From IMG/VR virus record IMGVR_UViG_3300006128_000009: a DNA stretch of 64,000 nt; one strand, 5' to 3'. The notes below the pieces were generated by a model that saw nothing but the letters and a program-made list of their open reading frames with translations, was not told the DNA's origin and did no database searches. Below, piece after piece: positions 746 through 37,107 of this stretch (its first letter is position 1; each line of letters opens with the position of its first letter). Both the position numbers and the translations under genes were made by a program. This DNA comes from an uncultured virus (IMG/VR IMGVR_UViG_3300006128_000009) (lineage: Duplodnaviria > Heunggongvirae > Uroviricota > Caudoviricetes).

Positions 746-1633
746 ATGAGCAAAAAACAACGCCCAAAAAAAGGTTCTGAACGTAAACAATCAGGAAGAA
801 TCGTTCATGAACAAACCATACCAGATTCCAATAACAAAGAAGACAAAAGTTTATACGTCTTTCAAAGAGATAAAATTTCATTTGATTTATCTATAAAAGA
901 ACTTCCTTGGACTGATAATCAGAAAAAAATAATAGAAACTTTTTTTGATAAAAATACAAAGGTTTTACTTCTAAAAGGACCAGCTGGTACATCTAAAACA
1001 ACATTAGCAATGTATTGTGGTTTAACTTTATTGAACAGAAGAAGAATATCTGATTTGGTTTTAGTTAGATCGGCAGTAGAATCTTCAGATTCTAAGCTTG
1101 GGTTTTTACCGGGCGATATTGCTGAGAAATTCAATGTTTATCTCACACCTTTCCACGATAAATTTGAAGAACTTTTATGTAAAGCACAATTAGACAGATT
1201 AGAAAAAGATAATCGTCTTACTATCTGCCCAATTAACTTTGCTAGAGGTCTTCATTTCTCGGCTAAATTTGTTTGTGCTGATGAAGTTCAGAATTTCTCA
1301 AGAAGAGAAATTCACACATTAATGAGTCGTATTGGTGAATTTTCAAAGGTATTTCTTTGTGGTGATCCAGAACAAAGTGATCTTCCTGTGGGTAAATCCG
1401 GATTCAATGCGATCTATGAATTATTCAATAACGAAGAATCAAGAAAACATGGTATTCATTGCATGGAATTAGGAGAAGAAGACATTGTTCGTTCTGAACT
1501 TTGCAGATTCATAACTCATAAATTCAAAGAACTTCAACTTTTAAAACAACAAGAAGAAGCAAATAGAGCACAACATCACAAAGAAAATAAACATATTGAA
1601 GAAAAAACTTGGAATCCATCAGAAAGTAGATAA
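746..1633 (+). CDS. phoH: PhoH-like ATPase
   Basis: GPAGTSKT P-loop, LGFLPG, RG, DEVQN, GDPEQSD motifs. Confidence 0.93.
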   Translation: MSKKQRPKKGSERKQSGRIVHEQTIPDSNNKEDKSLYVFQRDKISFDLSIKELPWTDNQKKIIETFFDKNTKVLLLKGPAGTSKTTLAMYCGLTLLNRRRISDLVLVRSAVESSDSKLGFLPGDIAEKFNVYLTPFHDKFEELLCKAQLDRLEKDNRLTICPINFARGLHFSAKFVCADEVQNFSRREIHTLMSRIGEFSKVFLCGDPEQSDLPVGKSGFNAIYELFNNEESRKHGIHCMELGEEDIVRSELCRFITHKFKELQLLKQQEEANRAQHHKENKHIEEKTWNPSESR

Positions 1634-1642
1634 ATATAAAAT

Positions 1643-1825
1643 ATGAATAACAATCCTCAATATGCAGTAGTTGAAAATCGCCCAATCGGATGCACTTTCT
1701 GTGGTGCACAAGTTCAGGGTAGAGTCAACGAAAAGAAAGACCCAAAGACAAACGAAACCATAAAGGAATGTCGTTGGTCATGTGGTAGATGTGGTAATCT
1801 TGTTAAGATAGGAAACGTAAAGTAA
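1643..1825 (+). CDS. Small Zn-ribbon protein
   Basis: CTFC...CGRC pairs; ATAAATA upstream. Confidence 0.6.
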   Translation: MNNNPQYAVVENRPIGCTFCGAQVQGRVNEKKDPKTNETIKECRWSCGRCGNLVKIGNVK

Positions 1826-20468: not shown

Positions 20469-21467
20469 TTATATTTTACACCTATCTCCAGAAAAGACAA
20501 TATCTTTTTCCGTTAATTCGGTATTCTCTATTAAATCTTTTACGAGATTTTTCTTAAATGGATTTAATCCAATTGAAACAAATCCACTATTATCAAAAGT
20601 ATATCTGAATTCACCGACTTCTTCTAAAACATCACACTTGTTAATAATAATTTTATTTGCACCAGATAGATTAATAGCATCAATCAACTTTCTGACATTA
20701 AGCCAATTCACAAGTCTTTTTCTACCTGTTGTTGTGCCTTTTTCATTTCCGATTTCAATTATTTTATTTAGAATAGGATCATCCCATAATGATTCGGGAA
20801 ATAAAGGATCAACACCACTCTTGGTATCGTATATTTTAGCAATACCTATGATATCACGAATCTTTTTTGGTGAGAATCCTAGGGAGCAAGCATTATGTGG
20901 AAATGTTTCAGAACTTGTTACATATGGATAATCACCATAGTTGATATCAAGCCAAATACTTTGAGCACCTTCACATAAAATTTTTCCTTTAAGTTTTCCA
21001 TTCCAATGATATATTGGATCAATAGAAGAATCTTTGATTTGTAATCCGACTCTATTTGCCTTTGCAGCATAACACGGAGCAATACCTTGACCAGTAGTTC
21101 CTAGCTTTGGTTTTAGATAATCTACATCGAACTTAATATGATCTTTTGTGATTACATGAGCATGTGGATGTATCTTAACTAATGATGTATCAAAACCATT
21201 TTCTTTGAGATATTCTATCTCTTCATGGAATTTGTTAATATTGACTACACAATTAGGACCAATAATAGAAGGTTTATTGTGAAATACACCAGAAGGAATA
21301 AGATGAGTTTTATACTTTTTATCATTCAGATAAACAGTATGACCTGCATTTGGTCCACCGTTCCAACGACAAATCATATCGTAATCTTTTGCTAATGCAC
21401 TAGAAATTTTACCCTTGCCTTCATCACCCCAAGCAAGACCTACAATGATATCAACATAATCAATCAT
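20469..21467 (-). CDS. purA: Adenylosuccinate synthetase (short form)
   Basis: WGDEGKGK, GGPNAGHT, GTTGQGI, EGAQ, YPYVTSS, GTTTGRKR. Confidence 0.95.
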   Translation of the reverse strand: MIDYVDIIVGLAWGDEGKGKISSALAKDYDMICRWNGGPNAGHTVYLNDKKYKTHLIPSGVFHNKPSIIGPNCVVNINKFHEEIEYLKENGFDTSLVKIHPHAHVITKDHIKFDVDYLKPKLGTTGQGIAPCYAAKANRVGLQIKDSSIDPIYHWNGKLKGKILCEGAQSIWLDINYGDYPYVTSSETFPHNACSLGFSPKKIRDIIGIAKIYDTKSGVDPLFPESLWDDPILNKIIEIGNEKGTTTGRKRLVNWLNVRKLIDAINLSGANKIIINKCDVLEEVGEFRYTFDNSGFVSIGLNPFKKNLVKDLIENTELTEKDIVFSGDRCKI

Positions 21468-21708
21468 TTTTTGGAAAAAGGAAAATTGGTGTTTTGTCTC
21501 CTACATATGCACCCATCATATTGAATTCCATATATTCATATGCTTCTTCATAAGACATATTATCTTTCATTAATTTTTTAATGATTAGTTCAGTATCATA
21601 AATCAAAATTTGACCTGTCCCAAATCTAAAACCTATGCCTACAATGCAATCATCATAACCATCAATTTTGATTACTTCTTCTTCTAAATCTAGTTTTTCT
21701 AAATTCAT
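21460..21708 (-). CDS. Conserved hypothetical phage protein
   Basis: DGYDDCIVG...EEAYEY.EFN..GAYVG..TP. Confidence 0.7.
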   Translation of the reverse strand: MNLEKLDLEEEVIKIDGYDDCIVGIGFRFGTGQILIYDTELIIKKLMKDNMSYEEAYEYMEFNMMGAYVGDKTPIFLFPKND

Positions 21709-21709
21709 A

Positions 21710-21919
21710 TTATTCAGGACAATCGAGCCAAGCTGGTTCTTTTCTAATGTGTTTTGATTGAGATTTGATCTCTTGACTCTTAATTGATCTAATCTCTTTT
21801 AGAATTTCTTTTGCTCTAGTATTAGAGATTTCAATCGTATCATTGCCGACTCTATCAGCAATTTTAGTCAAAACACTAAACATACCTTCGATGTCGCTTA
21901 CAATATTTGCGTATTTCAT
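21710..21919 (-). CDS. Hypothetical protein
   Basis: ORF from MKYANIV (longer start would overlap the RNA). Confidence 0.5.
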   Translation of the reverse strand: MKYANIVSDIEGMFSVLTKIADRVGNDTIEISNTRAKEILKEIRSIKSQEIKSQSKHIRKEPAWLDCPE

Positions 21920-21962
21920 TTTTATATTATGCTTTATTTGTTTATGGGATGCAAGAAAAAAA

Positions 21963-22240
21963 TGGTTGCGTGTTGAGTTTTGTCCTAGGGATTGTCTCAA
22001 GATTCAACGAAGGATCGGAGATTCCCGATCAGCTTCCGTCTAAGCCTGTGTTTACCGTACATATCAAGAGTACAAACACACCAACAAGCAAACTCCTCCG
22101 ATACGCCAAGGAATGACCTTGGAATTTGTTATGACAGGGATGGTTAATCCACCCTCAAACAGCGGTTGATATTGGCCTATAGAGCAACCTAGTCACCCGT
22201 TTGAACGGACGATCCTTTAGCTATCGGATCTGCGGACTGT
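21963..22240 (-). ncRNA. Unassigned structured non-coding RNA
   Basis: GC-rich island with at least 7 hairpins, own TTGACA promoter and boxA-like GTTCTTTTACA, ends in CCA. Confidence 0.65.
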
Positions 22241-22304
22241 CAAATTATGTAAAAGAACTATTATGATATTCTCATACTTTTCTGATTTTGTCAAATAAAA
22301 AAAT

Positions 22305-22379
22305 TGGCTCCTGATACTGGACTCGAACCAATAACTTGCAAGTTAACAGCTTGCCGCTCTACCATTGAGCTAATCAGGA
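22305..22379 (-). tRNA. tRNA-Asn(GTT)
   Basis: Cloverleaf, GTT, CCA. Confidence 0.95.
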
Positions 22380-22393
22380 GTGAAATTCAATCT

Positions 22394-22885
22394 CTATATT
22401 TTATCATTATGTTCTAATTTATCAATAAAATTCTTAACATATTTTTCAACAATCGGTAAAATTTCGTTTGCATATCTACTATGAAGATATTTGTGATGAG
22501 TTGGGCATATAGGAATCAAATTTTCAACTCTATTATCTTTATGATTTCCGTTATAATGATGAACTTCTACTATTTTTGTTTCATCACAAGCAATACATTT
22601 TTTTTCATGCTTATTAAAACAAGTTGTTCTATATGTATGTTCTTTCCAATTTCCATTATTTTCACCAGTTCTGAAAAATTTATTTGAACAAGAATAAGAA
22701 CAAGTTTTTTTATTTTCTTTTATTAAAGTTTCAAACTCTTTATTACATATTGGACACACTCTAACTTCTCTTGCTTTTTTGTGTTTGCAATCTTTACAAA
22801 CATAAGAATTTATATCTTTAATTCTTTTTATTTCATAGTTCCATCTTTTTATATTTTCTTTACAAGAAATACATTGTATATACAT
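22394..22885 (-). CDS. HNH endonuclease with Zn fingers, between tRNA-Pro and tRNA-Asn
   Basis: CPIC..TCSYSC; CIAC, EVHHYNGNH.DN..ENLIPICPTHH. Confidence 0.88.
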   Translation of the reverse strand: MYIQCISCKENIKRWNYEIKRIKDINSYVCKDCKHKKAREVRVCPICNKEFETLIKENKKTCSYSCSNKFFRTGENNGNWKEHTYRTTCFNKHEKKCIACDETKIVEVHHYNGNHKDNRVENLIPICPTHHKYLHSRYANEILPIVEKYVKNFIDKLEHNDKI

Positions 22886-22924
22886 ACATATATTTACTCG
22901 TTAATGTATAATTTGAGATAAAAC

Positions 22925-22998
22925 TCGGAACGACTGGAATCGAACCAGCAACCACATGTACCCAAAACATGCACTCTACCAAATTGAGCTACGTTCCG
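22925..22998 (-). tRNA. tRNA-Pro(TGG)
   Basis: CGG start, anticodon TGG, GTTCGA. Confidence 0.92.
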
Positions 22999-23041
22999 TT
23001 ATGTATACCAATATATACGACTTTTTAAAGAAAGTCAAATA

Positions 23042-23824
23042 TTATTTTGTAAATTCAAATCCTTCTGGATTTTTTTTGGTATAATAATCAGTAACATTTT
23101 TTTGAGTTGTTTTATCAACAGGATGACCTTTGTAAGCCCAACCATTAATACCATCCCAAACATATTTTCTACTCTTAAAAGTAACAGGTTGATTTAATCC
23201 TATTGAAATATTATTAGGTTTACCTGTTTTACCATATGTTACAACTTTAGGTTTCTCTGGTTCAGGTTCAGGTTTTTCTTCTGGTTCATCGTCGTAATCT
23301 GGTTCATCCACTCTATCTACAGGTTTCGTTGAACCTTCAGTATCAGAAGGCGGATAATCTATATCACTTGAAGTTAAAGGTTTTTCTGGTGCTGGTTTTA
23401 CATATGTGCTCAACTGCTTATCTAAATCATCTTTAATAATAGAAACCATGTGGGCCTCAACTTTTTCGGGAGTTAATCCACTACGATTTAAATTTAATTT
23501 ATTAAGATCATTTACGATTTCTGATGCAAGACTTTTAATCTGATCTGAATGTATTCTTAAAATCGTATTAATTTTTGCATCTTTTGATGCATTTCTTGCT
23601 TGTCTACGAGCATTGATTTGATCTTTTCGTAAAGCCATTCCGGTATTTTTAAGACCACTTGCTTTAGCAACATCAGCAGCCTTTCCCGCAGCATATGATC
23701 TTACTTTATTTTTTAAAGAACTCCAATTAGTCATTCCTGCTAACTTGGATCTAATCACACCAGCTTCATTTATTTGTTGCATTTTTTGGTAACTTTCAAA
23801 GATTGCGATATCGTCTTGTCTCAT
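23042..23824 (-). CDS. Hypothetical late protein
   Basis: MRQDDIAIFESY..INE; GTAAGTA upstream. Confidence 0.65.
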   Translation of the reverse strand: MRQDDIAIFESYQKMQQINEAGVIRSKLAGMTNWSSLKNKVRSYAAGKAADVAKASGLKNTGMALRKDQINARRQARNASKDAKINTILRIHSDQIKSLASEIVNDLNKLNLNRSGLTPEKVEAHMVSIIKDDLDKQLSTYVKPAPEKPLTSSDIDYPPSDTEGSTKPVDRVDEPDYDDEPEEKPEPEPEKPKVVTYGKTGKPNNISIGLNQPVTFKSRKYVWDGINGWAYKGHPVDKTTQKNVTDYYTKKNPEGFEFTK

Positions 23825-23922
23825 ATTTTAATACTTACTCTTATGTGGTGTAAAAATGGAGCGTCAAGCAATAGAGCAACAAAAAAGAGTAGAAAATTAA
23901 AATTTAAAAGATAAGTATTTAT

Positions 23923-24588
23923 ATGGAATTTTTAATACCAATTGAAAAATTTAAAGATTTTAAAGATATACCTTGCAAATGTGCTTTTTGCAAAAAAACA
24001 TTTAACATCACGAAATCTGAAGCTAGGAGACACATAAAAGGAACTAGAATAGTTAATTGTTGTTCAATGGAATGTAGAGTTAAATTAGCCACTAAAAAAC
24101 AAAACGTTTTATGTGCTAATTGCAATAAAGGGTTTTTAAAAAAATTAAATGAATGTAAAAAAACTAAAAATAATTTTTGCACTAGATCATGTGCAGCTAT
24201 TTTTAATAATAAAAACAAAACTCACGGTAATAGAAGATCAAAGCTAGAATGTTGGTTAGAGAAAAAATTAAATCAATTATATCCAAATTTAGAAATTCAC
24301 TACAATAGAAAAGACGCTATTAAAAGCGAATTGGATATTTATATACCGTCATTAAAGTTAGGATTTGAACTTAATGGTGTATTTCATTATGAACCCATAT
24401 TTGGAAAAGAAAAATTAAAATCTATTAAAAATAATGACAATAGAAAATTTCAAGCTTGTATTGAAGAAGGTATAGAACTTTGTATTATAGATGTAAGCAA
24501 ATTAGGGTATTTTAAAGAAAAATATGCTAATGAATTTTTAAATATAATTTTAAAAATTATAGAGAGTGCCGTGTCAGAGTCGAACTGA
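23923..24588 (+). CDS. Zn-finger Vsr/EDxHD-like endonuclease
   Basis: CxxC/FCxxxC repeats; SKLE, ELDIYIP, FELNG.FHY, ND..K. Confidence 0.8.
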   Translation: MEFLIPIEKFKDFKDIPCKCAFCKKTFNITKSEARRHIKGTRIVNCCSMECRVKLATKKQNVLCANCNKGFLKKLNECKKTKNNFCTRSCAAIFNNKNKTHGNRRSKLECWLEKKLNQLYPNLEIHYNRKDAIKSELDIYIPSLKLGFELNGVFHYEPIFGKEKLKSIKNNDNRKFQACIEEGIELCIIDVSKLGYFKEKYANEFLNIILKIIESAVSESN

Positions 24589-36379: not shown

Positions 36380-36480
36380 ATTTATTATTAATAAAATATA
36401 ACACATTTAAGGTTGAATGTCAATGTATTTTTTAGATTCAATAAGATTCGAAAATGCATTTTCAAAAGATAAGTATCTAT

Positions 36481-37107
36481 ATGAATAAAGGTTCATATAT
36501 TGTAAATTTAAAATGTTCTTTTTGTGATAAGCAATATAATAGAAACAATTCTTGGTATAAATCAAAATTAAAAAATAAACCTAATAAAAAATGGTATTGT
36601 TCAAAAATTTGTGAAAGTCAAAGTAGATTCAATAAAATTATTGTAAACTGTAAAAATTGTAATAAATCTTTTTTTAAATATCCAAATGAGATTAAAAAGT
36701 CACCAAATCATTTTTGTTCTAAATCATGTTCTGCAACATACAATAACAAAAATAAAACACATGGAAATAGAAGATCCAAATTAGAAAGTTGGTTGGAAGA
36801 ACAATTAACTTCTATGTATCCAACTTTAGAAATACACTATAATCGAAAGGATACTATTAATAGTGAATTGGATATCTATATACCATCATTAAAAGTTGCA
36901 TTTGAACTTAATGGTATTTTTCACTATGAACCAATTTACGGTGAAGAAAAATTAAAACAAATAGAAAATAACGATAATAGAAAATTTCAAGCTTGTTTAG
37001 AACAAGGAATATCACTTTGTATTATAGATACATCTAAATTAAATTATTTTAAACCAATTAATGCTAAAAAATATTTAGATATTATTTTAGAAGTTTTAAA
37101 TTTTTAA
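36481..37107 (+). CDS. Zn-finger Vsr/EDxHD-like endonuclease (paralog of 23923..24588)
   Basis: Same C-terminal domain; ATAAGTA 5 nt upstream of ATG 36481. Confidence 0.8.
   Translation: MNKGSYIVNLKCSFCDKQYNRNNSWYKSKLKNKPNKKWYCSKICESQSRFNKIIVNCKNCNKSFFKYPNEIKKSPNHFCSKSCSATYNNKNKTHGNRRSKLESWLEEQLTSMYPTLEIHYNRKDTINSELDIYIPSLKVAFELNGIFHYEPIYGEEKLKQIENNDNRKFQACLEQGISLCIIDTSKLNYFKPINAKKYLDIILEVLNF

What the first reader, a model, noticed from the sequence alone, without database searches (positions are those of the whole stretch)
21963..22295. Unassigned ~280-nt highly structured RNA ending in CCA within the tRNA region
Seen on the minus strand: TTGACA promoter, boxA-like GTTCTTTTACA, then consecutive hairpins (GATCC/GGATC, CCGTT/AACGG, GGGTGG/CCATCC, CCAAGG/CCTTGG, TGTGTTT-GTAC/GTAC-AAACACA, GAAG-GATCGG/CCGATC-CTTC, TTGAG/CTCAA). 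There is a possible long-range GGTTGC/GCAACC helix and a 3' ...GCAACCA followed by a T run. It is GC-rich with no credible ORF. It does not match tRNA or tmRNA ends. A CAGGCTTA segment only weakly recalls RNase P. Candidate new phage ncRNA class.
Basis: partly seen in the sequence, partly recalled or inferred. Interest (0 to 1): 0.75.

Follow-up and report, generated by a model that had tools for sequence, protein, structure and literature searches.

The report
New folded RNA in phage tRNA island
This 282-base stretch of an uncultured freshwater phage encodes a conserved, elaborately folded non-coding RNA of a family that is not in the RNA catalogue; its job is unknown, and it joins the poorly understood RNAs that phages keep beside their tRNA genes.

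Summary
The feature is real. On the minus strand, 22244 to 21963 (282 nt) is a 46% G+C island in a roughly 30% G+C phage. It has no Rfam match at E<=10 and no tRNA or tmRNA call.

I found 7 further distinct relatives in viral and metagenome contigs. Close variants also turned up in three other metagenome runs.

Comparison gives a two-part fold. The 113-nt 5' domain has helix P1 closing four hairpins. It is 92% paired, against 24-48% for slid controls, and 7 pairs change on both sides. The roughly 165-nt 3' domain has H5, P7/P6/P6.1, P8 and P9. In four longer relatives it is 91% paired, with 11 pairs changed on both sides. It ends in ACCA followed by 7 T, like this phage's own tRNA genes.

The long-range GGTTGC/GCAACC helix, the TTGACA promoter and the RNase P hint are not supported.

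In three relatives the 5' domain sits directly in front of a tRNA or a tRNA look-alike. In every lineage the P9 loop carries a different palindrome, which hints at self-pairing.

My best reading is a stable RNA processed out of the tRNA operon, comparable in setting to GOLLD/ROOL and the T4 species I/II RNAs. Expression and function are untested.

The parts
21963..22244 (-). Whole RNA as inferred (282 nt): 5' domain, linker and 3' domain
   Evidence: Extent of homology with relatives. G+C island. No Rfam family.
22132..22244 (-). 5' domain (113 nt): helix P1 closing hairpins H1-H4
   Evidence: Scores 110.7 bits, E 1.5e-28, against covariance model R1. Pair counts.
22237..22242 (-). P1 5' strand, UGACAG
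   Evidence: Pairs with 22137-22132. One P1 position reads C-G in 5 sequences, A-U in 2 and U-A in 1; another reads A-U in 7 and G-C in 1.
22132..22137 (-). P1 3' strand, CUGUCA
22211..22230 (-). H1 hairpin (GAUCC / GGAUC, 10-nt loop)
   Evidence: 3 of its pairs change on both sides across 8 sequences.
22197..22208 (-). H2 hairpin (CCGU / ACGG)
   Evidence: 3 pairs never vary; one varies U-A to U-G.
22190..22196 (-). Junction GUGACUA, identical in all 8 sequences
   Evidence: Note that this stretch was part of the search patterns, so its invariance is partly by construction.
22164..22189 (-). H3: outer GGUUG/CAACC plus inner stem UAU/AUA
   Evidence: The inner stem has 2 pairs changed on both sides (A-U/G-C and A-U/U-A). 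The outer stem is invariant.
22138..22154 (-). H4 hairpin (GGGUGG / CCAUCC)
   Evidence: In the X5/X8 contigs the substitutions and indels read as GAGUGG/CCACUC, one G-C to A-U change (my reading of its tables 3 and 4).
22106..22122 (-). H5 hairpin (CCAAGG / CCUUGG)
   Evidence: The X5 contig changes 22120/22108, 22119/22109 and 22118/22110 on both sides and keeps all three pairs. The X8 contig reads CGCAG/CUGCG. Longer H5 helices in relatives also covary.
22085..22089 (-). P7 5' strand, GCUUG
   Evidence: Pairs with CAGGC at 22048-22044. Relatives read GCUUG/CAAGC, GCUCG/CGGGC and UCCG/CGGA.
22080..22084 (-). Conserved UUGGU, present in all 5 long-type sequences; possible partner of the 3' ACCA
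   Evidence: The pairing is an inference. Flanking pairs covary between L090 and L091 but fail in L095.
22049..22078 (-). P6 (UGUUU/AAACA) with inner P6.1 (GUAC/GUAC) and a 9-nt loop
   Evidence: P6.1 reads GUAG/CUAC, AUAG/CUAU and GUAG/CUGC in relatives. P6 reads UGCUU/AAGCA in L090.
22044..22048 (-).
   Evidence: The X5/X8 changes at 22087 and 22047 keep the pairs.
22007..22039 (-). P8 (ACGGA / UUCGU) enclosing hairpin P8.1 (GAUCGG / CCGAUC)
   Evidence: P8 reads UCGAUAG/CUAUCGA in L090 and ACGGA/UCCGU in L095. The change at 22036 turns G-U into A-U in X4, X5 and X8. P8.1 replaces a pseudoknot partner (GGCUCC) found in the longer relatives.
21973..22000 (-). P9 (UUGAG / CUCAA) with an 18-nt A-rich loop
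   Evidence: 4 of 6 P9 pairs change on both sides among the four longer relatives.
21984..21989 (-). Palindrome CCUAGG in the P9 loop
   Evidence: Every lineage has a palindrome here with a different sequence, 6 to 10 nt long. A palindrome as long arises in 12-197 of 2000 shuffles of each loop. The X5/X8 loose end reads an 8-nt palindrome.
21963..21972 (-). 3' tail CACGCAACCA
   Evidence: Relatives end ...ACC(A/U/G). 11 of 16 tRNA genes in the window encode CCA.
21956..21962 (-). Run of 7 T after ACCA
   Evidence: The same CCA plus (A)T-run layout follows tRNA-Asn and several other tRNAs. The terminator scan reports no site on this strand, so it is not a canonical terminator.
22245..22304 (-). 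60-nt A+T-rich spacer between tRNA-Asn and the RNA, holding TTGACA (22294-22289) and the boxA-like motif (22258-22248)
   Evidence: AUUUGACA occurs twice, at 22296-22289 and 22245-22238. In L094 and L096 the RNA starts 3 nt after the CCA of the upstream tRNA. No -10 was found by the scan.
22305..22379 (-). tRNA-Asn (GTT), immediately upstream on the same strand
22398..22425 (-). Promoter-like site (TTGATA, 16 nt, TAAAAT, with TG) upstream of tRNA-Asn; candidate start of a tRNA-Asn plus RNA transcript
   Evidence: Consensus match, 10 of 12. It is not evidence of function.

Best explanation
The minus strand from 22244 to 21963 encodes a member of an uncatalogued family of phage structured RNAs that live inside tRNA gene islands.

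Shown by comparison:
- A 113-nt 5' domain in which a 6-bp helix (P1) closes a junction of four hairpins with near-invariant joining strands.
- A roughly 165-nt 3' domain made of hairpin H5, nested helices P7/P6/P6.1, P8 (here with its own hairpin P8.1) and P9.
- An A-rich P9 loop that displays a palindrome.
- A tail ending in ACCA followed by a T-run, as in this phage's tRNA genes.

The window copy is a trimmed version of longer relatives (344-486 nt). Those carry an extra domain and a pseudoknot.

Inferred:
- The RNA is made as part of the tRNA operon transcript, from the promoter-like site upstream of tRNA-Asn or from a weak site in the spacer.
- It is cut out like a tRNA cassette. In relatives its 5' end abuts the CCA of the preceding tRNA and its 3' end is followed by a twister-like element. 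Here the 3' end is followed by a T-run.
- It then acts in trans as a stable RNA.
- The 5' domain is a portable module. In three other phages it sits directly in front of a tRNA-Met or a tRNA look-alike.

Most speculative: two copies pair through the palindromic P9 loop (a kissing-loop dimer or larger assembly), and the conserved UUGGU holds the ACCA tail. That would make it a small analogue of GOLLD and ROOL, the self-assembling phage RNAs of tRNA islands.

My odds: real conserved structured RNA family 0.9; processed stable RNA of the tRNA operon 0.6; self-association through the palindrome 0.3.
For: No known family matches:
- Rfam at gathering score over the window gives 16 matches, all tRNA.
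- Rfam at E<=10 over 21700-22600 finds nothing on the RNA strand inside 21963-22250.
- Nothing covers the RNA in relatives.

Relatives:
- L070, found with a 17-mer scan of viral contigs.
- L090-L096, found with one metagenome scan: 7 loci, 6 distinct.
- In all, 8 distinct sequences with the window.
- Contigs in runs X4, X5 and X8, from three other studies, are 87-93% identical.

5' domain:
- On the unfitted MAFFT alignment A2, 87.0% of cells are paired against 23-48% for slid partners. 6 pairs change on both sides. The covariation score is 0.172 against 0.114+-0.014, reached by 0 of 500 shuffles.
- On the model-fitted alignment A3, 92.2% of cells are paired, 7 pairs change on both sides, and the score is 0.222 against 0.126+-0.016, reached by 0 of 500 shuffles.

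3' domain:
- In the four longer relatives, on an unfitted alignment, 90.8% of cells are paired against 32-48% for slid partners. 11 pairs change on both sides against 4.4+-1.6 in shuffles, reached by 0 of 500.
- The window forms every shared helix.

Close variants: of the 26 X5 differences listed, 13 fall in helices and all keep pairing. They include three two-sided changes in H5 and one in H4. The other 13 fall in loops and linkers.

Conservation: the RNA is far better conserved than the neighbouring proteins. The 5' domain has 84% mean column identity, while shared proteins are 28-76% identical. L070 is a complete 47.8-kb phage that shares no detected protein in the stretch compared.

Cassette layout:
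- The RNA starts 3 nt after the CCA of an upstream tRNA in L094 and L096, and 10 nt after it in L090.
- Twister-like elements (27-34 bits) follow it in L090, L091, L092 and L095.
- 11 of 16 tRNA genes in the window encode CCA, and several are followed by a T-run.

Palindromes in the P9 loop: CCUAGG, UCCGGA, UCGGCCGA and AUACUAGUAU, each rare in shuffled loops at 12-197 of 2000.

Context parallel: GOLLD and ROOL are phage RNAs near tRNA islands, tRNAs sometimes lie in the GOLLD linker, and kissing loops build their assemblies. This comes from passages read in bioRxiv 10.1101/2024.12.08.627333 and from the ROOL section of PMC5737381.
Against: - No transcript has been seen. Strand, ends and stability are inferred.
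- The single-sequence fold is not better than shuffles (z -0.45). Only 29 of the 65 comparative pairs appear in the minimum-energy fold, and the comparative structure scores -59.1 against -77.8 kcal/mol.
- The family is small: 8 distinct sequences, several of them closely related. The tool's own notes say related sequences can beat shuffles without any structure.
- The metagenome members were fished with a pattern that fixed GGTGACTAGGTTG and ATCAACCGC. The invariance of H3 and of the GUGACUA junction is therefore partly by construction, and more divergent members are missing.
- A3 is fitted to the model.
- The 3' domain count leaves the window row out, because MAFFT misaligned it.
- The UUGGU/ACCA pairing has invariant cores, and its flanks fail in L095.
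- The palindromes could act on DNA, as protein or nuclease sites. Where they are long they could also be short local hairpins.
- The 5' domain occurs without the 3' domain in L070, L094 and L096. The two halves may therefore be separate RNAs.
- No protein gene is consistently linked.
Confidence: 0.6

Rival explanations
1. Two independent small RNAs lie side by side. The 113-nt P1-closed 5' domain is one cassette and the roughly 165-nt 3' domain is another. Each is cut out of the tRNA operon transcript separately and has its own role.
For: - The 5' domain occurs without the 3' domain, directly before a tRNA, in L070, L094 and L096.
- It is closed by its own helix.
- In L090-L092 another helix-closed domain of about 100-140 nt lies between the two halves, flanked by similar A/U-rich linkers.
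- Earlier scan notes describe arrays of separate small RNAs in such islands (unchecked leads).
Against: In 5 of 8 sequences the two halves are adjacent in the same order. No 3' domain was seen without a 5' domain, though no search for a lone 3' domain was run. The linker is only 9-11 nt in the window and in L095.
Confidence: 0.25
2. The element is a cis-acting leader. The 5' domain is a ligand- or protein-sensing element, or an antitermination element, that controls read-through into what follows. That would be a tRNA in some phages, and here the 3' domain, the T-run and the orf69-orf82-adenylosuccinate synthetase operon.
For: - The junction strands are near-invariant, as in aptamers.
- In the complete phage G007 the domain stands at the head of a rightward unit, after divergent ORFs.
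- A T-run follows the window RNA, and genes on the same strand follow within 37 nt.
Against: - What lies downstream differs in each phage: a tRNA, a structured RNA or twister-like elements.
- No alternative terminator/antiterminator pairing is apparent, and no canonical terminator is present.
- In L094, L096 and L090 the domain follows a tRNA inside an operon rather than a promoter.
Confidence: 0.12
3. The 5' domain is a self-cleaving or processing ribozyme of a new class. It trims the operon transcript at its own border and so frees the neighbouring tRNA ends, in the way HDV-like ribozymes are reported next to phage tRNAs.
For: - It directly abuts tRNA ends on one or both sides: 3 nt after CCA in L094 and L096, and 9-10 nt before tRNA-Met in L070 and L094.
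- It has a compact junction fold with invariant joining strands.
- Twister-like elements in the same islands show that ribozyme processing is used there.
Against: It matches no known ribozyme family. The distance to the flanking tRNA is not fixed: 60 nt in the window and 10 nt in L090. Nothing marks a cleavage site.
Confidence: 0.08
4. There is no RNA function. The island is a remnant of mobile DNA, or a target or recognition region for the nearby HNH endonucleases. It is conserved at the DNA level, and its palindromes are protein sites.
For: HNH genes lie near the element in the window (22394-22885) and in L154. The block 21468-24573 is absent from the closest relative L001. The palindromes are restriction-site-like.
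Against: Two-sided changes that keep base pairs in at least 10 helices are not expected of DNA-level conservation. G-U pairs fit only one strand. HNH is absent near the element in G007 and G008.
Confidence: 0.03
5. The element is a divergent RNase P RNA, tmRNA or tRNA-like adaptor that the standard models miss.
For: The 3' end reads ACCA, and CAGGCUUA faintly resembles the RNase P P4 strand. It lies in a tRNA island, and relatives carry a true tmRNA nearby.
Against: - No hit to any RNase P, tmRNA or tRNA model at E<=10.
- ARAGORN finds nothing.
- CAGGC pairs with GCUUG 37 nt upstream, with covariation.
- The 5' end pairs with an internal strand (P1), not with the 3' end.
- There is no T-arm.
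Confidence: 0.01

Closest known systems
GOLLD and ROOL RNAs (large ornate RNAs of phages and prophages)
   Same: - Encoded by phages, often next to tRNA islands.
- Function unknown.
- Modular, with a variable linker that in GOLLD sometimes holds a tRNA.
- Kissing loops build their multimers.
These points come from passages of bioRxiv 10.1101/2024.12.08.627333 and the ROOL section of PMC5737381.

Here the RNA lies in a phage tRNA island, a tRNA sits behind the 5' domain in three relatives, and a palindromic loop is kept in every lineage.
   Different: There is no sequence or structure match to either Rfam model. This RNA is much smaller, at 282-486 nt against about 580 and about 800 nt. Its helices and junctions are different. 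Self-assembly here is only inferred from a palindrome.
Phage T4 RNA species I and II (rnaC, rnaD) in the T4 tRNA gene region
   Same: These are small stable RNAs of unknown function encoded among phage tRNA genes and matured with them. The map legend of PMC2330249 shows 'RNA species I and II' in the tRNA region (passage). Their sizes and processing are recalled, and were also named in earlier scan notes, not checked here.
   Different: No sequence likeness was found: blastn of the window RNA against 50,697 phage records gave no match. This RNA is about twice as long and has two domains. Its host phages here are uncultured freshwater phages.
Other unassigned RNAs in freshwater phage tRNA arrays noted earlier in this scan
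   Same: They share the setting (G+C-rich gaps between tRNA genes of uncultured freshwater phages), covarying helices and the absence of any Rfam family (AI notes, unchecked).
   Different: A look-up by sequence found no look-alike of this RNA in other windows, so it is a separate family.

Membership tests
The new family itself (5' domain model R1) | P1-closed four-hairpin domain with the GUGACUA and GCUG junctions, scored by a covariance model | tested here: met
   The window at 22132-22244 (minus) scores 110.7 bits, E 1.5e-28. It is one of the 8 seed sequences, so it matches by construction. There were no other hits in 773,111 bases from 69 sources.
The new family itself (3' domain) | H5, P7/P6/P6.1, P8, and P9 with a palindromic loop, followed by an ACC(N) tail | tested here: met
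   The window forms every one of these helices. It lacks the pseudoknot and the extra domain of the longer relatives.
Bacterial RNase P RNA | Match to the Rfam RNase P models; conserved regions forming helix P4 | tested here: not met
   No hit at E<=10. The CAGGC strand pairs with GCUUG (P7), with covariation.
tmRNA | tRNA-like domain formed by the 5' and 3' ends, with a T-arm and a tag reading frame | tested here: not met
   ARAGORN finds no tmRNA and there is no Rfam tmRNA hit on the RNA. The 5' end pairs internally, in P1.
tRNA or tRNA-like | Cloverleaf with an acceptor stem formed by both ends; 3' NCCA | tested here: not met
   No tRNA call inside 21963-22250. Only the NCCA plus T-run ending resembles the phage's tRNA genes.
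GOLLD RNA | Match to the Rfam GOLLD model (conserved 3' half) | tested here: not met
   No hit in the window or in the relatives.
GOLLD RNA | Phage-borne, next to tRNA islands, with a tRNA sometimes inside a linker | tested here: met
   The window has 16 tRNAs. tRNA-Met lies behind the 5' domain in L070 and L094.
ROOL RNA | Match to the Rfam ROOL model | tested here: not met
   No hit.
GOLLD/ROOL-like self-assembly | RNA-only multimer held by intermolecular kissing loops | not testable with these tools
   The only evidence is a palindrome kept in the P9 loop of every lineage. Native gels or cryo-EM are needed.
Known self-cleaving ribozymes (twister, hammerhead, HDV-like, hatchet, pistol) | Match to the Rfam ribozyme models | tested here: not met
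   None lies on the RNA. Twister-like hits lie downstream of the RNA in relatives only.
Group I intron | Match to the Rfam group I intron model | tested here: not met
   No hit on the RNA. True introns score 85 bits elsewhere in L092 and L095.
T4 species I/II RNAs | Sequence likeness to the T4 genes | tested here: not met
   blastn against the phage collection gave no match. No structural model of these RNAs was on hand.

The most novel reading that the evidence does not exclude
This would be a third, much smaller class of self-assembling phage RNA, after GOLLD and ROOL. In this reading it is a modular RNA of tRNA islands that pairs with copies of itself through a palindromic kissing loop. Its portable 5' domain can carry a tRNA as cargo in the linker. 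Its conserved UUGGU grips ACCA ends, either its own or those of tRNAs. That would give a tractable 280-nt model for what such phage RNA assemblies do to host or phage tRNA metabolism.
Probability: 0.2. Interest if true: 0.85.

Novelty: new variant of a known kind. Interest (0 to 1): 0.62.

Why it matters
Phages have been known for fifty years to keep unexplained stable RNAs among their tRNA genes. GOLLD and ROOL were recently shown to build RNA-only cages, yet no function is known for any of these RNAs.

This family adds a compact member with well-supported covariation. It has three useful properties:
- a domain that moves between unrelated phages;
- versions with a tRNA inserted behind that domain;
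- a loop palindrome that changes in sequence but stays a palindrome.

At 282 nt the window copy is small enough for direct tests of folding, dimer formation, cleavage and binding. It could therefore make the question of what tRNA-island RNAs do experimentally approachable.

If it turns out to be only one more orphan RNA, it still belongs in Rfam.

Tried and rejected
- Expression: the look-up of sequencing runs listed 12 runs and no RNA holder, so nothing can be said about expression.
- GenBank phage collection: blastn in distant mode gave no match.
- Relatives of the neighbouring adenylosuccinate synthetase gene: 61 loci were fetched. blastn and nhmmer found no homologue of the RNA, only two chance hits at E 0.017 and 0.058. 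A search of 5 whole viral records gave a best E of 0.1. Model R1 found nothing in them. The block 21468-24573 is simply missing from the nearest relative.
- Viral pattern scans:
  - a 21-mer of the 3' domain gave 0 hits;
  - a 17-mer of H3 gave 19 loci, 18 of them chance and one a second fetch of L070's contig;
  - a 17-mer of the core gave only the three contigs already known;
  - a two-block pattern that I wrote with the wrong gap (24-30) hit 37 copies of a small lipoprotein ORF (L120 496-750), which is chance and unrelated;
  - the corrected gap (19-25) gave 8 loci: three are the contigs already known, and the other five have no R1 hit.
- Genome-contig scan: 2 hits, both in coding DNA of high-G+C MAGs, so chance.
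- RNase P-like P4 pairing between the 5' end and CAGGCUUA: I worked this out by eye and dropped it once P1 and P7 were supported by covariation.
- Long-range GGUUGC/GCAACC helix: rejected.
- Pairing of GCGU (22105-22102) with ACGC in the tail: the tail reads ACAC in the X5/X8 loose end, and no change is listed at the GCGU positions.
- Likeness of the L095/L091 tail to the 3' end of 16S rRNA, and of H4 to the T-box sequence: both were seen by eye, are absent from other members, and are treated as coincidence (recalled motifs, no test).
- MAFFT alignment A4, which includes the window's 3' domain, was misaligned and was not used for counts.
- Folding energy as evidence is not significant.
- Linked protein genes: Pfam on 16 window ORFs and 20 ORFs of relatives found no shared partner.
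- Prior description: the search of PMC10690425 (10,006 candidate viral RNAs) covered 6 supplementary files with no occurrence of the core motif. The two large alignment files and one further file were not searched, so prior listing there cannot be excluded.
- Literature: searches turned up no description of this family.
- The search of earlier findings by place and by sequence returned nothing.
Full report
**1. What is at the coordinates**

Read on the minus strand, the interval lies between tRNA-Asn (22379-22305) and a 69-aa ORF that starts at 21919.

It is a G+C island: 0.465 at 22000-22199, against 0.25-0.34 on either side. Only short, unconserved ORFs cross it.

The window carries 16 tRNA genes, all on the minus strand, and no tmRNA.

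Neighbouring genes are:
- an HNH endonuclease at 22394-22885;
- a 332-aa adenylosuccinate synthetase homologue at 20469-21467.

The closest relatives are uncultured viral contigs. The sequencing runs that hold this DNA are freshwater, pond or aquatic metagenomes.

**2. Known families**

- Rfam 15 at gathering score gives 16 matches in the window, all tRNA.
- A permissive scan of 21700-22600 at E<=10 gives six matches. Only tRNA-Asn is significant, and none lies on the RNA strand inside 21963-22250.
- The same holds for relatives and for a 506-nt long form at E<=10, which gives zero matches.
- ARAGORN finds nothing there.

So the RNA is not RNase P, tmRNA, GOLLD, ROOL, a group I intron or a known ribozyme as those families are modelled.

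**3. Folding energy is not evidence here**

The minus strand folds to -77.8 kcal/mol, against -75.4+-5.3 for shuffles (z -0.45; 63 of 200 shuffles as good). The plus strand gives z -1.67.

**4. Finding relatives**

Several routes found nothing:
- The 61 viral loci that encode the neighbouring synthetase do not hold the RNA. The block 21468-24573 is replaced by about 0.9 kb in the nearest relative, whose synthetase is 93% identical.
- GenBank phages give no match.

The way in was read laying. Contigs of pond metagenomes X5 and X8 (2455 and 6350 nt) cover 21992-22222 with 28 differences and 3 gaps. Their loose ends run on in homology at both sides. Contigs of X4 cover 21878-22096 and 22136-22300.

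The blocks that did not differ gave search words:
- A 17-mer found L070 in viral contigs.
- A two-block pattern found 7 metagenome loci, L090-L096, of which L091 and L093 are identical.
- L092 and L095 are also held as viral records.

With the window this makes 8 distinct sequences. Hits in bacterial MAGs and most other pattern hits were chance.

One caveat matters. The metagenome pattern fixed GGTGACTAGGTTG and ATCAACCGC, so those letters are invariant partly by construction. More divergent members were not sampled.

**5. The 5' domain (22244-22132, 113 nt)**

Alignment of the 8 sequences (84% mean column identity) shows a 6-bp helix P1 (22242-22237 with 22137-22132) that closes four hairpins:
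- H1, 22230-22211;
- H2, 22208-22197;
- H3 with an inner stem, 22189-22164;
- H4, 22154-22138.

| Measure | Unfitted MAFFT alignment | Refitted to model R1 |
|---|---|---|
| Cells paired | 87.0% | 92.2% |
| Cells paired, partners slid by 1-3 columns | 23-48% | 24-48% |
| Pairs changed on both sides | 6 | 7 |
| Covariation score | 0.172 | 0.222 |
| Score in shuffles | 0.114+-0.014 (0 of 500 reach it) | 0.126+-0.016 (0 of 500 reach it) |

In the refitted alignment the two-sided changes fall as two in P1, three in H1 and two in the inner stem of H3. One P1 position reads C-G in five sequences, A-U in two and U-A in one. Another reads A-U in seven and G-C in one. H2, the outer helix of H3 and most of H4 do not vary, so they say nothing either way.

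GGUUG pairs with the nearby CAACC. The second 'TTGACA' is the 5' strand of P1, not a -35 box.

**6. The 3' domain (about 22122-21963)**

Five sequences carry it: the window, L095, L091, L092 and L090. The relatives are longer, at 344-486 nt in all.

The four longer ones align well. On that unfitted alignment my structure gives 90.8% paired cells, against 32-48% when slid. 11 pairs change on both sides, against 4.4+-1.6 in shuffles (0 of 500 reach it). The covariation score is 0.400 against 0.223+-0.041. The window row was left out because MAFFT misplaced it.

Scripts show that the window forms each shared helix:

| Helix | Window strands | Window coordinates |
|---|---|---|
| P7 | GCUUG / CAGGC | 22089-22085 with 22048-22044 |
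| P6 | UGUUU / AAACA | within 22078-22049 |
| P6.1 | GUAC / GUAC | within 22078-22049 |
| P8 | ACGGA / UUCGU | 22039-22035 with 22011-22007 |
| P9 | UUGAG / CUCAA | 22000-21996 with 21977-21973 |

The counterparts in relatives differ on both sides:

| Helix | Strands in relatives |
|---|---|
| P7 | GCUCG/CGGGC; UCCG/CGGA |
| P6.1 | GUAG/CUAC; AUAG/CUAU |
| P8 | UCGAUAG/CUAUCGA |
| P9 | GAAGG/CCUUU; GGAGGG/CCUUUC |

The longer relatives also have:
- a pseudoknot, GGAGCC with GGCUCC in the P8 loop (invariant, so untested);
- in L090-L092, an extra helix-closed domain after the 5' domain.

The window lacks both. Its P8 loop instead forms its own hairpin, P8.1 (22030-22013). The window copy is thus a trimmed form.

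**7. Independent support from the close variants (read by hand from its tables)**

Of the 26 differences listed for the X5 contig, 13 lie in helices and all keep pairing.

- H5 (22122-22117 with 22111-22106) changes on both sides at three pairs in X5. In X8 it reads as a different perfect 5-bp helix.
- H4 reads GAGUGG/CCACUC instead of GGGUGG/CCAUCC.
- The change at 22036 turns the G-U of P8 into A-U, which also fixes the P8 register.
- The changes at 22057, 22087 and 22047 swap Watson-Crick and wobble pairs in P6.1 and P7.

The other 13 differences lie in loops and linkers. The tool hid 32 further rows, so this tally covers only what was shown.

**8. Ends and setting**

The RNA ends in ACCA (21966-21963) followed by 7 T. 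Of the 16 tRNA genes in the window, 11 encode CCA, and several of these are followed by an (A)T-run. Relatives end in ACC followed by A, U or G.

In L094 and L096 the 5' domain begins 3 nt after the CCA of the preceding tRNA. In L090 it begins 10 nt after.

In the window a 60-nt A+T-rich spacer intervenes. AUUUGACA stands both at its start (22296-22289) and at the RNA's start (22245-22238), which suggests an insertion or duplication.

By eye there is a TG-preceded GAATAT at the right distance. The scan does find a 10-of-12 site at 22425-22398, upstream of tRNA-Asn. It finds no canonical terminator on this strand.

In L090, L091, L092 and L095 the RNA is followed within about 10 nt by a twister-like element. 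These score 27-34 bits against a gathering score of 67.2, and the alignment keeps much of the twister core.

Together these features suggest a cassette cut out of a tRNA operon transcript. That is inference; no RNA data exist for it.

**9. Modularity and spread**

In L070 and L094 the 5' domain is followed 9-10 nt later by a tRNA-Met (CAT). In L096 it is followed by a tRNA look-alike with a 7-bp acceptor stem and CCA.

L094 and L096 then carry a small conserved pseudoknot-like module. That module also bears a palindrome, AUCCGGAU in L094 and UCCGGA in L096.

Each viral record holds one copy.

L092, L094, L095 and L096 share several proteins with the window at 28-76% identity. They are therefore distant kin of this phage, yet the RNA domain is about 84% identical. 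L070 is a complete 47.8-kb phage that shares no detected protein in the 13 kb compared, so the domain has probably moved between unrelated phages.

No protein gene is consistently linked. HNH genes are near the element in two of four settings.

**10. The palindrome**

The A-rich loop of P9 holds a perfect palindrome in every lineage, and its sequence differs between lineages:

| Lineage | Palindrome |
|---|---|
| Window | CCUAGG (21989-21984) |
| L095 and L091 | UCCGGA |
| L090 | UCGGCCGA |
| L092 | AUACUAGUAU |
| X5/X8 loose end | 8-nt palindrome around CUAG |

A palindrome at least as long arises in 96, 70, 197, 13 and 12 of 2000 shuffles of the respective loops.

As local hairpins these would have only 1-3 pairs around a 4-nt loop. 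As a pairing between two copies they give 6-10 pairs. That is the logic of a kissing-loop dimer. It matches what was found for GOLLD, ROOL and OLE, where covarying kissing loops hold RNA-only assemblies together (passages).

It is a hypothesis. A role at the DNA level is not excluded.

**11. UUGGU and the tail**

All five long-type sequences keep UUGGU just after P7 (22084-22080) and end in ACC(N). UGGU could pair with ACCA. The flanking pairs change together in L090 (GGUAU/AUACC) and L091 (GGUGA/UCACC) but fail in L095.

If real, this pairing would tuck the CCA-like end into the fold. Alternatively the same motif could grip tRNA ends. I rate this as weak.

**12. Comparison and novelty**

The setting and style match two known groups:
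- GOLLD/ROOL: phage-borne, near tRNA islands, with a tRNA in the linker, using kissing loops, of unknown function.
- The T4 'RNA species I and II' of the tRNA region (map legend; details recalled).

Membership in either is not met, since there is no model or sequence match.

Earlier notes of this scan report other unassigned RNAs in freshwater phage tRNA arrays. None resembles this one by sequence.

A catalogue of 10,006 candidate viral RNAs exists (PMC10690425; abstract and passages read). Its motifs are 29-151 nt long, and its alignment files could not be searched, so a partial earlier listing cannot be ruled out.

I therefore call this a new family of a known kind, phage tRNA-island RNAs, with unusual features:
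- a portable closed 5' domain;
- tRNA-bearing variants;
- a loop that stays a palindrome while its sequence changes.

**13. Verdict**

The proposed promoter, boxA, closing helix and RNase P hint are not.

Function remains unknown. My committed reading is a stable, tRNA-operon-processed, trans-acting RNA that may self-associate. The alternatives are two separate small RNAs, a cis-acting leader, or a processing ribozyme.

Noticed in passing
window 20469-21467 (-): A short (332 aa) adenylosuccinate synthetase homologue (PF00709) with 61 viral relatives. It is 28% identical to the gene annotated as 2-aminoadenine-pathway PurZ in Vibrio phage phiVC8 and 37% identical to enterobacterial purA. The phage might therefore use a modified adenine.
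   Followed up: no
L095 1174-1243 (-), L092 1058-1127 (-), L091 1936-2034 (+), L090 39-136 (-): Twister-P1-like elements lie about 10 nt downstream of the RNA in four relatives. They score 27-34 bits against a gathering score of 67.2, and the alignment keeps much of the twister core. They are possibly a variant self-cleaving ribozyme that sets RNA ends. The window has a T-run instead.
   Followed up: partly
L095 1979-2599 (-); L092 2582-2814 (-); L096 1-162 (+): The related phages carry a tmRNA gene (53 bits in L095; a 3' part in L096) and a group I intron (85 bits). In L095 the intron hit overlaps the tmRNA hit.
   Followed up: no
L094 about 1652-1715 (+); L096 about 1652-1710 (+): Behind the tRNA that follows the 5' domain lies a second conserved element with pseudoknot-like pairing that covaries: CCCUAGU/ACUAGGG against UCCUAAU/AUUAGGA, and GGAU/AUCC against GGAG/CUCC. 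It also carries a palindrome, AUCCGGAU or UCCGGA. It has no Rfam hit.
   Followed up: partly
L096 about 1575-1653 (+): A tRNA look-alike with a 7-bp acceptor stem, a discriminator base and CCA, but without standard D, anticodon or T arms. It stands where L094 and L070 have tRNA-Met.
   Followed up: no
window 23923-24588 (+) and 36454-37107 (+): Two paralogous ORFs of 221 and 217 aa lie on the strand opposite to nearly all other genes and have no Pfam match. Homologues (44-76% identical) sit beside the tRNA islands of L094 and L096.
   Followed up: no
window 22394-22885 (-); L154 5254-5622 (-): HNH endonuclease genes lie between tRNA genes close to the RNA in two phages. The window block 21468-24573 is absent from the nearest relative L001. 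Both fit mobile cassettes in the tRNA region.
   Followed up: partly
L090 145-247 (-): A 103-nt tRNA match (47.8 bits) that ARAGORN does not call lies directly after the RNA. It is possibly a tRNA with an insertion.
   Followed up: no
L120 496-750 (+) and 36 similar viral loci: A conserved small lipoprotein ORF followed by a terminator hairpin happened to match a mis-specified search pattern. It is unrelated to the RNA.
   Followed up: yes
window 22296-22289 and 22245-22238: The 8-mer AUUUGACA occurs right after the T-run that follows tRNA-Asn, and again at the start of the RNA. The sequence between the two copies looks like an insertion or duplication specific to this lineage. It is kept in the X4 variant.
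   Followed up: partly
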